A stretch of DNA of 64,000 nucleotides from Eledone cirrhosa (GCA_964016885.1 OZ024740.1:374046001-374110000); one strand, 5' to 3'. Positions 396-26,507 are shown, counted from the first letter of the stretch. Made by a program: numbers and translations. Notes: a model not told the origin generated them from the sequence alone.

Positions 396-1027
396 ATAAA
401 CTGAAAAAATGCAACGAAATTTCATTTCTCACTCTTAGTACGGCTTAATTCGGTATGTTATTTTACAAACACACCGAGCATTATGATAAATGTCCGGTGA
501 ATCCATACGTACATATATATATGTGTGCATGTATGTATATATATATATATATATATATATACATACTACTTTACGTCTGTATACATATATGTATGTACGT
601 ATACATACTTATATTTAAGTAACAGCCGTACTAAGAGTGATAAATGACATTTCGTTTCATTTTTTCCGTTTATCGTTTTCGGTGCACCCGGCCGATTAAC
701 TCACTCGATATGCAAATTAGGCTGCTCAGCCGTTAATATGCATAAGTAAATATATACTTTCAGACATTCAATCATCTGGCAGGAAGGTATGCGTTGCTGA
801 CGATAGCTAATAAGCTTGAAACTAGTACAGCGTTCCTATGTCAGTGTTGAACAAATGAGCAACGATGGTTGCTAGACACTGTACGGCTGAATTCGGGATG
901 TTTGTTTACAAACACACCGAGCATTATAATAAATGTTCGGTGAATCCATATATGTGTGCATGTATGTATATATATATAAATACTACTGTACGTCTGTATA
1001 CATATATGTATGTACCTATGCATACTT
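396..1027 (+). mobile_element. Family A: non-autonomous Penelope-like/retrozyme element, partial tandem with an inverted left end
   Basis: Direct repeats at 438-610 and 881-1027. 396-445 is the reverse complement of 624-673. It contains an HHR and has (TA)n on both sides. Confidence 0.75.
791..833 (+). ncRNA. Minimal type I hammerhead ribozyme
   Basis: gcgttg-CTGACGA-T AGCT aata AGCT T-GAAA-CTAG-TA-cagcgt. The core is intact, stem I has 6 bp including G-U pairs, stem III is palindromic and the cleavage triplet is GUA. Confidence 0.8.
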
Positions 1028-1759
1028 ATATATATATATATATATATATATATATATATATATATATATATATATATATATATATATATATATATATATA
1101 TATATATATATATATATGTATATATATATATATATATGTACATATGTATATATAGGGTATATGTGTGCAAGTAACTGTGCTTGTAACTGTATCTGTGCTT
1201 AAGTATCCATATATTCATGTATGCATACATATGTGTATCCCTTTATCTGCAATATGTTAATGGGACTCAAGGCATGATGAATTTTAGTGTGAATTAAATT
1301 AGAATAAAACATCATCAATATATGGCGTTTCCTCACACAGACGTGTTTAATTATGCACATAATGATTTATTGCATAATTATCACTGTACACCTCCTCCCA
1401 GTGGAATGGTTCACAGCATCATATATGACAAGAGATGCAGAAATCGATAAATATGAGGAACTACACTGGAGGACAACAGAAACCGCACAAGCTCAAAATA
1501 TTGATCACATCTTGGGCAACTGAAGTATAGATATATCAAACTGAATTCTGATATATATATATATATATATATATATATATATATATATATATATATATAT
1601 ATATATATATAGATTTTGAGTTTATGTTGGTTGTATACCAACACCTCAGTATGCAGGCTGGAGCACTCGACGAAGTGCGCAGGTTGGTTTGGTTACTCCG
1701 GAGTAGTGTAAAATAAAGTTAAATAAAAGTCAAATGATTAAAATTTAGCTTCGTTTATT

Positions 1760-1814
1760 ACTGCTATATATATTTCAGTGACAGCCATCTTTGGCTGTGA
1801 CCTCTTCAGGCAGT
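1760..1814 (-). ncRNA. Type I hammerhead ribozyme (family B, left arm)
   Basis: Reverse complement of 2050-2104. Confidence 0.75.
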
Positions 1815-2049
1815 TTGAATTAGAATGGTATAGACAAGTACATATGTTGTTTAGGTGTATGATATTGTCAATACTCTGATATGCCCAGTTCCTTGTTGGG
1901 TTGTTAATTCACTGGGGAACTGGAGTCATTGGATACGACTCCAGTTCCCCAGTGAATTAACAACCCAACAAGGAACTGGGCATATCAGAGTATTGACAAT
2001 ATCATACACCTAAACAACATATATACTTGTCTATACCATTCTAATTCAA

Positions 2050-2104
2050 ACTGCCTGAAGAGGTCACAGCCAAAGATGGCTGTCACTGAAATATATATAG
2101 CAGT
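2050..2104 (+). ncRNA. Type I hammerhead ribozyme (family B, right arm)
   Basis: actgc-CTGAAGA-ggtcacagcc aaagat ggctgtcact-GAAA-TATATA-TA-gcagt, immediately followed by AATAAA. Confidence 0.8.
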
Positions 2105-2850
2105 AATAAACGAAGCTAAATTTTAATCATTTGACTTTTATTTAACTTTATTTTATATATATATATATATATATATATATATATATATTTATTAAAATAA
2201 CAGAATAAATATTTGCACTACGGTTCTTATATATTTGATATATATTTATCCTTATCGAGCCCTCTTTGGATTTTAGTCTTCAAATTTATTATTATTACTA
2301 TATATATATATATATATTATATATATATATATATATATATATATATATATATATATATATATATATATATATATATATATATATATATATGTGTGTGTGT
2401 GTGTGTGTGTGGGTGACTGTACGTGTGTAGTTTGATTTATTTTAAAAGCTGGTTATAAATAAAACACTTTCAATTCAGTGACTCGATGTGTGGTTAGCCT
2501 TCGAGAATTATATTATGTATTGCATTAAAGTAAATGTAAATCCATTTAACTGAAAGTCCATAAATATAATTTTTAACAGAAATCTACGATAAGGTTAATT
2601 AAGCCGATCACAATTGGTATTGGGGAACTTCGTAAACAGACACTTGATAAAGTAATCCCTAAGGTTACGAAGTATTGCTAATGTTACTATGACAATATAT
2701 GGGATACATTATGCTCTGTTTCAAACAGATTATTTGTAATGAAGGTATGCACACAACCCCCCCCCCCCCCGGAACATACACACACACATATATATGTATG
2801 TATATATATATATATATATATATATATATATATATATATATATAAACTAT

Positions 2851-22832: not shown

Positions 22833-23130
22833 ATTTATATATATATATATATATATATATATATATATATATATATATATATATGAACATGTTTAACCGC
22901 GAGGGCAGAGCTCAAGCCGTTTCGACGGCTATTTCTGGACTCCAGAAATAGCCGTCGAAACGGCTTGAGCTCTGCCTTCAGGGTTAACATTTTCCTATTA
23001 CCCACTCTACTACCCTAAGTATTGAGTACACTGGTGTGTTATTATCCATCTGGTTATTTACCAAACTTCCTTCGTTATATATATATATATATATATATAT
23101 ATATATATATTTATTTATATATATATATAT

Positions 23131-23415
23131 GTTAATTGAACAAGTACTTTCATGCTTTCGCAATTTTCGGGTTCATATTCAGTGGTGACAGTCAAGTTTG
23201 CAATTTTTACAGTTGAAAATAGCAAACTTGACTGTCACCACTGAATATGAACCCGAAGATTGCGAAAGCAGGAAAGTACTTGTTCAATTAACACTTAACA
23301 TTTCAAATTCTACCATACTATTTCATTATAATATCATTATAATTTTATAGGATTGTAAATAAAACGAGTAAATCAGACAAAGTTGTAATTCCTTTTATTA
23401 ATATAATCTTCTATA
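23131..23415. mobile_element. Family G fold-back element in (TA)n
   Basis: Near-perfect 71-bp arms at 23131-23201 and 23222-23292, with a right extension of about 120 nt. Only a weak CTGAATA...GAAA relic is present. Confidence 0.75.
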
Positions 23416-26400
23416 CACAATTATACACACCCGTGTATATTTATTTACCTATATATATGTATATATATATATAGGGGGGGGGGGGGCGTGCAAGTAATCG
23501 TGTGTATTTATGTATACATAATTACACACATTTGATTATATATATATATATATATATTGTTATGCTTTGGGTGGGTCATGTTGCCAATAATGGTCATGTT
23601 GCTATATATATATATATATATAAATACATATATATATAATTATTTCAAATGGAAAACTAATGTTGTTACTCAAATTCCATCTGTAGTCTCTATAATTATT
23701 TCTATGGGGCTAAATAAAGCTCCAGTATCAATTATTGGTAATTGAATAATAATTGTTCATACTTAATGCACTGGTACTTTAATTTATCGACCCCGTAAGG
23801 ATGAAAGGCAAAGTCAACCTCGGCGGGATTTGAACTCAGATCGTTAAGGGACGTAACTATGCTGGAAAGCATAGTGTCCGACCCTCTACCGATACTGCCA
23901 ATCTACCGTAAGTGAATAATAATAATATTATAACAATATAATTAATAGTCGGTTCGTTTGCAAGCATATATCCCCAAAATACCATGTGTGTTTTCTAAAC
24001 AACTAATGTTAAATTATTTAAAACAGTGTGCTCAGCGTTGTGGATTGGCAATATCGGTAAATTGTAGGACGTTACACTTCGTGGCATTGAGTTACATCCC
24101 TTTACGATCTGAGTTCAAATCACACTGAAGATAATTAAGCCTTTTATCCTAACGGGGTCGATAAAATAAATCACCAGTAAGCTATTGGGGTCAATTTAAT
24201 TGACTTTCCCTTCCCCTTCAAATTGGTGTCCTTGTGCCTAAATCAGAAACCATTATTATTATTATCAGTGTTGTTGTTGTCGTTGTTGTTATGTTGCAGA
24301 TACATTTAAAAATTACTGTGTAAGATATATCGTTACAACGCCTAATAGGCCTTTCGACATATCGACTTTGGTATATGTTTTTGTGTGTGTGTGTGTCTGT
24401 GTGTGTGTGGGTGTGCGCTTGTGCTAATATAGGTTATTTAGTATTCATTGGCGCAATATATAACAACCCCTTCCCATGTGAATAGATTTGTGGTGCAGTA
24501 TTGGTAAAAGGTCGGACGCCATGCGTTGCAGCATAGACATAAGCCCCTTTACATTCTGAGTGCAAATCCCGACGAGGTTAACTTTGCCTTTCATCCTTAC
24601 GGGTCAATACAATAAAGTACCAGTAATGCACTGGGGTAATTGCTGGCATTGTACCAAAAGTAGAAACAATTATTTTGAGTTTGTGTGTGTGTGTATTTGT
24701 TGTTTGTAAATTTATGATTGCCCGGTTCAAATATTCATTGTTATTTCTGTGACTCCAGGGGACCCCATTTGCTCACCATACGGAGAGATGGGGCAGGCGA
24801 GAGAGATGGACGTGATGACAGTGGGAGTTCGGCTGTTCTTTCATATTTACTTAGGGTCCTATTTTCTATTACATATATATATATATATATATATATATAT
24901 ATATATATATATATATATATATATATATATATATATTCACATAAAAGAGAAGAAGCCAGGTAAGCAGATGAAGAGACTAACAGTCAGTCGTTAATTGCAT
25001 AAACATTGTTGTTTTTAATTGAGACCAAGCGAGAGTATGTTATCATAAACTTTCTGTTCGTCAAATTGATCGATAACATTAGTAACGTTGTGGACATGAT
25101 AGACAAAATCCTTGAAGGCACTATTCTGTCATAGCCCCAATCCAATAACTGAAACAAGTACTACACACACAGATCCACAGACACATATATGAAGAAATAT
25201 ATACACAAATATATTACATAATATGGTTACGTTCTCGAGGTAATCCATATTGGAACGACAAGGGAACGGATAAAGATGATGTTTTTGAAGCCTTCATCCA
25301 CGCCCTCGTGAGGCCTAAACAACTTCCTTAGCCTTGCCGAGGCGCAAATGTGAAGGAAGTTAACCATTTATCTACTACCCATGGCACACCAGACCTAGCT
25401 TAGGGAAGCCTCTACCCAAACCAATCCCCGCCATTCACGCCTGTGAGGTGACACCGTCACAGTGTTCCAGACAGCTACTAAATTATAGCATACTTCTAGT
25501 CCAACGTCCAGCAGCAGCCGACCAGAGCCCTGTGGTAATGTAAATATTCAACTACAATCCCTATTTATGTGTGAACAATATAATTAAGTGCCAAGGGAAT
25601 AAAATCTTATGGTTTCACAATTGAAATTAAAATCAGTAATAGTGTTGAAATTTGGAAATTGAAAATCCAAAGTCAAAACTTTGAACTTCAGAATCATTGA
25701 TTGAAGTTAATAAAAAAAATGTGTGTAAATTATAATTATAAATGAAGGGAGGATCAATATCGGATATTAAAAATACATTATCCATTTATTGAGCGATAGT
25801 ACCGTAACCTTATTATGTAATAGGGATTGTCTGATAAGAGACTGACACTGTTTAAGCGGAATCGCGTAGCCACTGTCATCATTGAAATATATATCACAGA
25901 CTTATCAATAAAGGACATTAACATCTGCAGATACTTCGCATTCTCTCTCTCTCTCTCTCTCTCTCTCTCTCTCTCTATATATATATATATATATATATAT
26001 ATATATATATATATATATATAAACATAGCATAATGAACATTATATTTACAATTTGAGTATCCATCCGTGGAAAAGCTCATTTCGTCGCTCGCACTTCCTT
26101 AAATTTTCTTCACTATCACTCTGCATAATCTTGTCTCTCTTTCTTTCTCCCTTTTTTATCACCCTTTTTTCTTTCTTCTCTCTCTTTCTCTTTTTTTTTC
26201 TCTCTCCATTTAACTATTCTTTCTCTCTCCCTTTCAATATGTTTTCTCTCTCCCTTTCACTAGTTTCTTCCAACAGTTTAATTTAAATAAACCGTTGTTT
26301 TTTCAATTTTTCTGACACTCATTTGCATACTTACTCATAATTTTGAATCGCCATCAATTAAAATCTGTTCCACTATCCAGCGAACCTCAACCGTTAAGGT

Positions 26401-26441
26401 TGTCTTTCTGCGGGTATGTCAATATTTATAAAACAAATTTG

Positions 26442-26507
26442 TATTTTATCTGATGAAAGCGCACCAAAATGTGCATTGGTTGCCCTTGAAATATATATAA
26501 TAAAATA
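26442..26507 (+). ncRNA. Type I hammerhead ribozyme (family F, additional copy)
   Basis: Stem I TATTTTAT/ATAAAATA (8/8 bp), CTGATGA (26450-26456), GAAA (26488-26491), TATATA-TA. Confidence 0.7.

What the first reader, a model, noticed from the sequence alone, without database searches (positions are those of the whole stretch)
791..26507. Zoo of minimal hammerheads with self-complementary stem III
Seen: the sequences between GAAA and the cleavage site are CTAG (822), CATATG (282), TATATA (2092, 20322, 22770, 26492) and CCGG (26813 on -), with a non-palindromic CACTG at 14189. Several have a U.U or A.A mismatch closing stem II, and two carry stem II inserts of about 70-90 nt (181, 8312). Six or more independent HHR types in 64 kb is dense. 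Inference: recurrent palindromes suggest selection for dimer-dependent cleavage.
Basis: partly seen in the sequence, partly recalled or inferred. Interest (0 to 1): 0.7.

Follow-up and report, generated by a model that had tools for sequence, protein, structure and literature searches.

The report
Hammerhead ribozymes of stacked Penelope retrotransposons
These hammerhead-ribozyme motifs are real and sit at the tail ends of several jumping-gene families, mostly Penelope-like retrotransposons, that are spread through this animal genome at about this density; their self-complementary third stem likely lets them cut RNA only in pairs, an arrangement that is already published.

Summary
They are 3' ends of repeat families. 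181, 2055/20285 and 8319 belong to Hydra-clade Penelope-like elements, 26840 (U3-A8 core, 12,790 exact copies) is linked to a Neptune-type element, and 797 lies in a 431-nt retrozyme-like tandem unit. The window is not unusually dense: 92 hits in 1.0 Mb sampled elsewhere, P=0.38. Self-complementarity holds across families (17 of 22 duplex-only pairs Watson-Crick against 27% expected), so dimer cleavage is likely. That is published (PMC4209133; PMC8557442 File S2 lists an octopus Hydra element). The scan found the same on other DNA before. Corrections: CACTG is an interrupted palindrome; 8319 has a U4C core and an imperfect palindrome; 181 has almost no stem I although its family has 1,911 copies; the nearest neighbours are opposite-strand mates, which could not pair as dimers. 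Cleavage is untested. Stem-II arms of 80-90 nt are the only structural extra.

The parts
1..351 (+). 3' end (pLTR) of a very young Hydra-clade Penelope-like element; hammerhead core at 181, 90-nt stem II arm, CATATG stem III, cleavage base 289, weak stem I; the endonuclease-coding part lies just upstream of the window
   Evidence: 100% identical to the unit in L178; 40 of 40 best hits identical; 1,911 pattern matches, control 8; ORF in L178 and L180
438..1034 (+). About 1.4 copies of a 431-nt non-coding tandem unit (retrozyme-like); hammerhead core 797, CTAG stem III, cleavage base 827
   Evidence: direct spacings 412-518 nt; 37% GC, longest ATG-started ORF 68 aa
1709..2182 (.). Inverted pair of 5'-truncated Hydra-clade ends (219-nt arms, 100% complementary); hammerheads at 1809 (-) and 2055 (+), TATATA stem III
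   Evidence: RT and GIY-YIG frames in L031/L032
7020..8479 (.). 5'-truncated Hydra-clade element with inverted pLTR; endonuclease fragment 7309-7593 (+); hammerheads at 8319 (+) and 7199 (-) with CCGAAGA core and 81-nt stem II arm
   Evidence: (tblastn 97% to the L124 endonuclease)
11854..12198 (+). Part of a 538-nt tandem unit (retrozyme-like); type-I hammerhead, core 11898, with a 67-nt stem III predicted stable in one molecule; cleavage base 12012
   Evidence: spacings 533-538; hairpin -19.7 kcal/mol
13810..14255 (+). 3' end of a repeat family; hammerhead core 14165, interrupted palindrome CACTG, cleavage base 14195; this copy lacks 8 nt of loop II that relatives have; parent element not established
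   Evidence: 1 of 26 copies with a weak upstream Neptune-like hit
20067..20143 (+). Relic of a long-arm hammerhead related to the 8319 family (CAATTG stem III; first core box lost)
   Evidence: 77% to the 8319 unit; alignment A1
20166..20398 (+). Second insertion of the 2055 family; hammerhead core 20285, cleavage base 20329
   Evidence: 92% to the L031 unit
22373..22855 (.). Inverted pair; hammerheads at 22591 (-) and 22733 (+), TATATA/TATATG stem III; close relatives end Hydra-type ORFs
   Evidence: relatives L187 and L212; 0 of 41 exact-family copies with an upstream protein hit
23130..23297 (.). Inverted pair; hammerheads at 23170 (-) and 23253 (+), GTAC stem III; parent element not established
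26367..26672 (+). Older relative of the 22733 family; hammerhead core 26450, cleavage base 26499
   Evidence: 81-83% to the 22733 family
26641..26881 (-). 3' end of a family linked to a Neptune-type Penelope-like element; hammerhead with U3-A8 core at 26840, CCGG stem III, cleavage base 26811
   Evidence: 12,790 exact matches, control 0; RT and GIY-YIG ORF upstream in L361
26882..27366 (-). Two decayed direct copies of a further family; cores at 27049 and 27366, 12-nt stem III segment; parent element not established

Best explanation
The motifs are type-I hammerhead sequences at the 3' ends of about ten repeat families, mostly Penelope-like retrotransposons (Hydra clade, one Neptune-type) plus short retrozyme-like tandem repeats, and they likely cut the element's RNA only when two copies pair through the self-complementary stem III. 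Shown: the motifs, their families, the linked RT/GIY-YIG reading frames for four families, and cross-family self-complementarity. Inferred: in a full element the repeat-ORF-repeat tandem puts two same-family hammerheads on one transcript (3,115 nt apart in L178). Stem III is too short to fold alone, so the two palindromes would form one duplex, each core would take the other copy's cleavage strand, and a unit-length RNA would be cut out, possibly with help from the element's protein. The copies in this window are mostly 5'-truncated insertions in (TA)n tracts and are likely inert by-products. Their closest neighbours are opposite-strand mates that would fold into long hairpins, not dimers.
For: (5 hits against 0.055). 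(each motif searched is a repeat family); same-strand PLE protein hits upstream at family-constant distance in 21 of 41 (181), 14 of 31 (8319) and 3 of 33 (2055) copies. RWK, ADKT, CxCx5C, CxxC and CxH motifs; among 120 homologues DK[TS] in 119 and RW[KR] in 111. Neptune-type ORF for 26840; duplex-only pairs Watson-Crick in 17 of 22 (13 distinct segments seen at least twice) against 27% expected, p about 1e-6; centre pair alone 7 of 12, p=0.02; shuffle false hits 7 of 22; forced single-molecule hairpins +2.4 to +6.0 kcal/mol against self-duplexes -3.2 to -8.3 for the perfect palindromes; covariation score 0.40 against 0.19 shuffled (0 of 500) in 8 long-arm sequences; core departs at 13 of 1,945 letters, flanks at 418 of 23,439. 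Literature: PMC4209133, PMC8557442, PMC6765202.
Against: No cleavage was measured. The youngest family (181) has 1 contiguous stem-I pair plus a bulge and 2-3 more pairs in the two commonest upstream variants of 30 position-ordered copies, yet it has 1,911 copies. 8319 carries U4C and a self-duplex of only -0.7 kcal/mol. The AGAAC/AGGAC family (17 of 92 sampled hits) and the CCTCTGG/CCTTTGG types are not palindromic at the centre. In the core-versus-flank test one of seven families (27049) went the other way and two more were not significant; loci were best BLAST hits and shared variants are counted repeatedly. In a lizard PLE, catalytic hammerhead mutants did not impair insertion in vitro (PMC11167929). 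No parent ORF was established for 14165, 23253, 27049, 797 or 11898. Pfam did not recognise the Hydra RT, and no tree was built.
Confidence: 0.8

Rival explanations
1. The hammerheads are inherited passengers. They once mattered, or cut only weakly, and the elements spread without cleavage; the palindromes persist from ancestral selection or serve RNA-RNA pairing without catalysis.
For: The 181 family amplified very recently with almost no stem I. U4C is present in all 41 hits of the 8319 family examined. PMC11167929: cleavage not needed for insertion in vitro, and no RNA-seq read ends at the site. PMC4209133: low in vitro activity even as dimers.
Against: Compensatory changes in stems I, II and III across families. 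The U3-A8 compensatory core is fixed in 12,790 copies. Pooled core conservation exceeds the flanks.
Confidence: 0.13
2. The ribozymes act as monomers, with the element's protein holding the strained stem III; the palindromes are a by-product of short hairpins and TA-rich sequence.
For: The lizard PLE hammerhead cleaved only with protein present (PMC11167929). TATATA is the commonest microsatellite word here. 11898 has a stem III that folds alone.
Against: GC-containing palindromes (CTAG, CCGG, CGCG, TGCGCA, CACGTG, CGGCCG) recur, and their central pairs cannot form in one molecule.
Confidence: 0.05
3. The window is a special locus where the host keeps a cluster of ribozymes to process a long transcript.
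For: Four TATATA hammerheads lie on the + strand, and two same-strand pairs have compatible stems (2055/20285, 22733/26450).
Against: Density equals the genome background. Every motif searched is a truncated copy of a high-copy family. Both strands are used, and several copies are decayed.
Confidence: 0.02

Closest known systems
Hydra-clade Penelope-like elements and their hammerheads, including Hydra-1_Obim of Octopus bimaculoides (Craig et al. 2021, PMC8557442, section 11 and Files S1/S2)
   Same: RT followed by C-terminal GIY-YIG; RWK, DKT, CxCx5C, CxxC and CxH motifs; (TA)n targets; inverted 5'-truncated copies; type-I hammerhead near the 3' end with self-complementary stem III and, in most rows of File S2, a U.U pair closing stem II.
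   Different: Loop II in the Hydra rows of File S2 is about 10 nt or less (read by eye), against arms of 81-92 nt here. The 181 family has almost no stem I, and 8319 has U4C.
Minimal hammerheads (min-HHR) of metazoan PLEs (Cervera and de la Pena 2014, PMC4209133; Lunse et al. 2017, PMC5785218, not held, known here only by title and through the review PMC6765202)
   Same: Short stem I, unpaired or mismatched base at the start of stem II, palindromic helix III, many families per genome, mostly single truncated copies, opposite-strand pairs 100-700 bp apart, a U3-A8 core variant, proposed dimer cleavage.
   Different: Far more numerous here: about 2.8e5 estimated (95% bootstrap 1.7-4.0e5) against about 2,000-9,000 in the genomes of that paper.
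Non-LTR retrozymes (Cervera and de la Pena 2020, PMC7229834; bioRxiv 10.64898/2026.07.22.740005)
   Same: The 797 and 11898 units are short, non-coding, low-GC direct tandems with one type-I hammerhead per unit.
   Different: The 538-nt unit exceeds the stated 150-450 bp. Arrays seen here are 2-3 copies and also form PLE-like inverted pairs. Circular RNA was not shown.
Neptune-clade PLEs (features as given in PMC8557442)
   Same: [quoted passage not shown]
   Different: Linkage was seen in 2 of 39 copies, the rest being truncated; no tree was built.

Membership tests
Type-I hammerhead ribozyme | Core CUGANGA ... GAAA ... UH in type-I order | tested here: met
   12 of 15 tabulated sites have the strict core; 8319 and 23253 have U4C and 26840 has U3-A8, variants named in PMC3088659 and PMC4209133
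Type-I hammerhead ribozyme | Stems I and II can form | tested here: inconclusive
   Met for 797, 1809, 2055, 20285, 22733, 26450, 26840, 23253, 11898 and 8319; weak for 14165 (3 bp); nearly absent for 181; damaged at 22591, 27049 and 27366
Type-I hammerhead ribozyme | Covariation in the stems | tested here: met
   8 of 15 pairs with a change on both sides, score 0.40 against 0.19 shuffled and at most 0.10 slid; 8 rows, one a 5'-less relic; the rows other than the window's were picked by a scan that asked for stem II and a near-palindrome, so the counts lean towards the structure
Type-I hammerhead ribozyme | Site-specific self-cleavage | not testable with these tools
   Needs a cleavage assay
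Rfam hammerhead families | Score at or above the gathering threshold | tested here: not met
   0 hits in the window; no hammerhead hit for 640-900 at E up to 10
Hydra-clade PLE (181, 2055, 8319 families) | Single ORF, RT then C-terminal GIY-YIG | tested here: met
   L178 729-aa frame with YRDD and a GIY-YIG-type motif; GIY-YIG E=6e-4 and 2e-3, below the curated cut-off; Atlas neighbours carry GIY-YIG and RVT_1; Pfam itself missed the RT
Hydra-clade PLE (181, 2055, 8319 families) | RWK, DKT, CxCx5C linker, CxxC and CxH around the last endonuclease residues | tested here: met
   RWK in L178; ADKT in L178 and L124; CxCx5C in 3 of 3 families; CxxC and CxH in L124 and L032 (the L178 frame stops before them)
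Hydra-clade PLE (181, 2055, 8319 families) | Insertion in (TA)n, pLTR tandems and inverted 5'-truncated copies | tested here: met
   (TA)4 or longer 54-59 nt after the cleavage base at 181, 2055, 8319 and 20285; divergent inverted pairs in 11 of 11 families examined; direct 3,115-nt tandem in L178
Hydra-clade PLE (181, 2055, 8319 families) | Phylogenetic placement with reference Hydra RTs | not tested
   No reference sequences were available as tool records; no tree was built
Neptune-clade PLE (26840 family) | GxKF, Cx2-5CxxC linker, RT and C-terminal GIY-YIG | tested here: met
   on L361; linkage to the motif in 2 of 39 copies; no tree
Non-LTR retrozyme (797, 11898) | Non-coding, low-GC tandem unit of 150-450 bp with one type-I hammerhead | tested here: inconclusive
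   797: 431 nt, 37% GC, met. 11898: 538 nt, 31% GC, size not met
Non-LTR retrozyme (797, 11898) | Expression as unit-length circular RNA | not testable with these tools
   Needs RNA from the animal
Dimer-dependent PLE hammerhead | Self-complementary stem III too short to fold alone | tested here: met
   exceptions are 11898, 27049/27366 and, weakly, 8319 and 14165
Dimer-dependent PLE hammerhead | Faster cleavage as dimer than as monomer | not testable with these tools
   Needs kinetics

The most novel reading that the evidence does not exclude
This genome holds some 2-4 hundred thousand hammerhead motifs in dozens of families, each with its own palindrome-plus-stem-I pairing code that confines cutting to same-family tandems. 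In one Hydra sub-lineage an 80-90-nt structured stem-II arm has become a platform for the element's own protein and can stand in for stem I, so that the youngest family (1,911 copies, stem I nearly gone) still cuts as a protein-gated ribozyme.
Probability: 0.12. Interest if true: 0.6.

Novelty: new member of a known kind. Interest (0 to 1): 0.24.

Why it matters
As it stands it adds members to a published association: Penelope-like elements with palindromic, probably dimeric hammerheads. Its use is as material. Many families with different palindromes in one genome give a ready panel for monomer, homodimer and heterodimer kinetics. A very young, high-copy family whose stem I is nearly gone, beside relatives with an intact one, makes the open question of whether PLEs need their hammerhead directly testable.

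Tried and rejected
Rfam: no hammerhead among the 150 of 354 matches shown at E up to 10, none at gathering score, none for 640-900. Idea that 26840 is a decayed copy: rejected, the TTGAAAA core is family-wide. The DNA search for that family returned nothing because common words are skipped. Idea that the 3' tail of 181 pairs with the end of the stem-II arm as a conserved pseudoknot (8 complementary bases at 181, 5 at 8319): not seen by eye in the other long-arm families, and the predicted fold uses those bases inside the arm; set aside. Unusual local density: rejected. The hairpin at 22885-22985 is an inverted piece of a common repeat without a first core box in the 15 relatives shown; not counted. 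Lone CTGANGA words at 3366, 3786, 8759, 19991, 24125, 20182-, 9203-, 6291- and 4606- gave no descriptor hit. Pfam and PDB sequence searches did not recognise the Hydra RT. Sequencing runs for the 797 unit: no RNA holder listed. Lunse et al. 2017 was not held. Seven literature searches showed no paper on octopus hammerheads beyond PMC8557442 and none on 80-90-nt stem-II arms in Hydra elements. The supplements of PMC4209133 and of Lunse 2017 were not seen and may hold long-arm examples.
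Full report
Setting. The window is G000:C1:374046001-374110000 of a 3.0-Gb genome, AT-rich and full of TA/CA microsatellites. That it is an octopus is an inference from these traits and from the octopus Hydra element in PMC8557442; it was not tested.

Observation. A descriptor blind to palindromes (strict core, stem I at least 4 bp, stem II at least 4 bp) gave 5 hits (797+, 1809-, 2055+, 20285+, 22733+), all palindromic, against mean 0.055 and maximum 2 in 200 shuffles of 500-nt blocks, none palindromic. Rfam found nothing at gathering score.

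Each motif searched is a repeat end. DNA searches scored the 40 best of 73 (2055), 1,702 (8319), 1,519 (22733), 1,249 (797), 901 (181), 775 (14165), 2,107 (11898) and 2,073 (27049) candidates. Exact patterns count 1,911 copies for 181 (control 8) and 12,790 for 26840 (control 0). 23253 was not searched genome-wide; 5 relatives turned up in fetched loci. In 11 of 11 families examined, neighbouring copies occur as divergent inverted pairs, the arrangement described for Penelope-like elements (PMC8557442 passages). The window shows it at 1709-2155, 7020-8479, 22373-22855 and 23130-23297.

Parent elements. Longer copies carry RT and GIY-YIG frames: L031/L032 for 2055, L124 for 8319 (the window's own 7309-7593 is 97% identical to its endonuclease end), and L178/L180 for 181. 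Same-strand protein hits lie upstream at a family-constant distance in 21 of 41, 14 of 31 and 3 of 33 copies. The proteins have the Hydra-clade marks given in section 11 of PMC8557442: RWK, DKT, CxCx5C, CxxC, CxH. Of the 120 listed homologues (198 found), 119 have DK[TS] and 111 have RW[KR]. Pfam missed the RT; Atlas neighbours carry GIY-YIG, RVT_1 and HTH_animal. Relatives of 22733 (L187, L212) end Hydra-type ORFs, but 0 of 41 exact-family copies had an upstream hit. The 26840 family is tied to a Neptune-type ORF (GLKF, Cx2-5CxxC, RVT_1 E=1e-6, GIY-YIG E=5e-7) in 2 of 39 copies. 797 and 11898 sit in non-coding direct tandems of 431 and 538 nt, like non-LTR retrozymes (PMC7229834); 2 of 57 copies of 797 had an upstream PLE hit, one probably the window's own 181 neighbour. 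14165, 23253 and 27049 remain unassigned.

Density. One hundred evenly placed 10-kb pieces (999,800 bases; chosen by round coordinates, mostly on the large contigs) held 92 strict-core hits in 26 clusters, and 39 pieces had at least one. Twenty-five shuffles gave 0-3. The window has 6 by the same rule, reached in 38% of draws of six pieces and 12% of three. The extrapolation is 2.8e5 motifs (95% bootstrap 1.7-4.0e5); 17 of the 92 come from one tandem-array family.

Palindromes. Counting only pairs that one molecule cannot form, 17 of 22 are Watson-Crick among the 13 distinct segments seen at least twice, and 27 of 41 among all 24, against 27% from composition (p about 1e-6 and 2e-7) and 7 of 22 in shuffle false hits. 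The centre pair alone, which excludes the conserved 15.2-16.2 pair, gives 7 of 12 (p=0.02) and 13 of 23 (p=0.002). Families share ancestry, so these p values are optimistic. Against: the AGAAC/AGGAC family (17 of 92 hits) and the CCTCTGG/CCTTTGG types are not complementary at the centre. For the window's perfect palindromes a forced hairpin costs +2.4 to +6.0 kcal/mol and the self-duplex gives -3.2 to -8.3; 8319 gives only -0.7 and 14165 -1.6; 11898 folds alone at -19.7. In 8 long-arm sequences the covariation score is 0.40 against 0.19 shuffled, and the central stem-III pair is A-U in 4, C-G in 1, U-A in 1 and unpaired in 2; those rows were picked by a scan that favoured the structure.

Core against flank. 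Within seven families the core departs from the commonest letter at 13 of 1,945 letters and the flanks at 418 of 23,439. Four families are significant alone, two are not, and 27049 runs the other way. Loci were best BLAST hits and shared variants are counted repeatedly, so this is only supporting.

Odd cores and stems. 26840's TTGAAAA is the compensatory U3-A8 core already reported in schistosome PLEs and elsewhere. 8319's U4C is in all 41 hits examined; PMC3088659 describes U4C as lowering but not abolishing activity. In the 181 family, 30 position-ordered copies show two main upstream variants (14 and 7 copies) that allow one stem-I pair, a bulge and 2-3 more pairs, while the relative L113 has 5 contiguous pairs. 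A recent burst with a crippled stem I fits the finding that catalytic mutants do not impair insertion of a lizard PLE in vitro.

Mechanism. Inferred from the double-hammerhead model in PMC4209133: a repeat-ORF-repeat tandem puts two same-family motifs on one RNA, the palindromes form one duplex, and a unit-length RNA would be released. Because stem I would form between the copies (my inference from that model), pairing should be family-specific, so a mixed cluster does not create dimers. The inverted mates lie on opposite strands and would form hairpins of up to 219 bp. Most copies here are therefore likely inert.

What is known. Papers seen: PMC4209133, parts 1-2 of 4 of the text; PMC8557442, passages, section 11 and part 2 of 59 of the supplement; PMC6765202, PMC11167929 and PMC3088659, passages; PMC7229834, passages and section 14; bioRxiv 10.64898/2026.07.22.740005, abstract and section 14; PMC10085705, reference-list passages only; Lunse 2017, nothing but its title. 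File S2 of PMC8557442 already shows palindromic stem III and, in most rows, U.U closure in Hydra elements, and it lists one octopus element. Long arms are not in it. This scan has reported Hydra hammerheads, long arms and U4C several times.

Verdict. Observation confirmed; interpretation likely right but published; density ordinary for this genome. New members of a known kind, interest 0.24.

Noticed in passing
window 13195-13290 (+, 5'-truncated) and about 50995-50890 (-, complete): A repeat family with hammerhead parts in scrambled order (cleavage strand, then GAAA strand, then CTGANGA strand). 15 distinct copies passed a pattern requiring stems I and III, 7 of them in the 1.0-Mb sample, with five stem-I types that include changes on both sides. 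Earlier notes of this scan describe such families in this genome. No shuffle control was run. It is more unusual than the finding itself.
   Followed up: partly
window 11890-12020 (+): Type-I hammerhead with a 67-nt, G.U-rich stem III holding two 12-nt palindromes, in a 538-nt tandem unit; predicted to fold alone.
   Followed up: partly
L283:6144-7897: Array with 311-nt spacing carrying a hammerhead with CGCG stem III on both strands; a retrozyme-like family.
   Followed up: no
L191:865 and 16 other sampled hits: Abundant hammerhead family whose stem III centre is AA or GA rather than palindromic; tandem G.A pairs might still allow a dimer (recalled, not tested).
   Followed up: no
window 32200-37640 (+): Decayed non-LTR retrotransposon with an apurinic-type endonuclease (PF03372) and RT (PF00078).
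   Followed up: partly
window 22885-22985: Near-perfect hairpin formed by an inverted piece of a very common repeat.
   Followed up: partly
window 9768-9967: Assembly gap of 200 N.
   Followed up: no
window 29808-30212 and 62565-63187: Two-copy tandem repeats of 203 and 314 nt.
   Followed up: no
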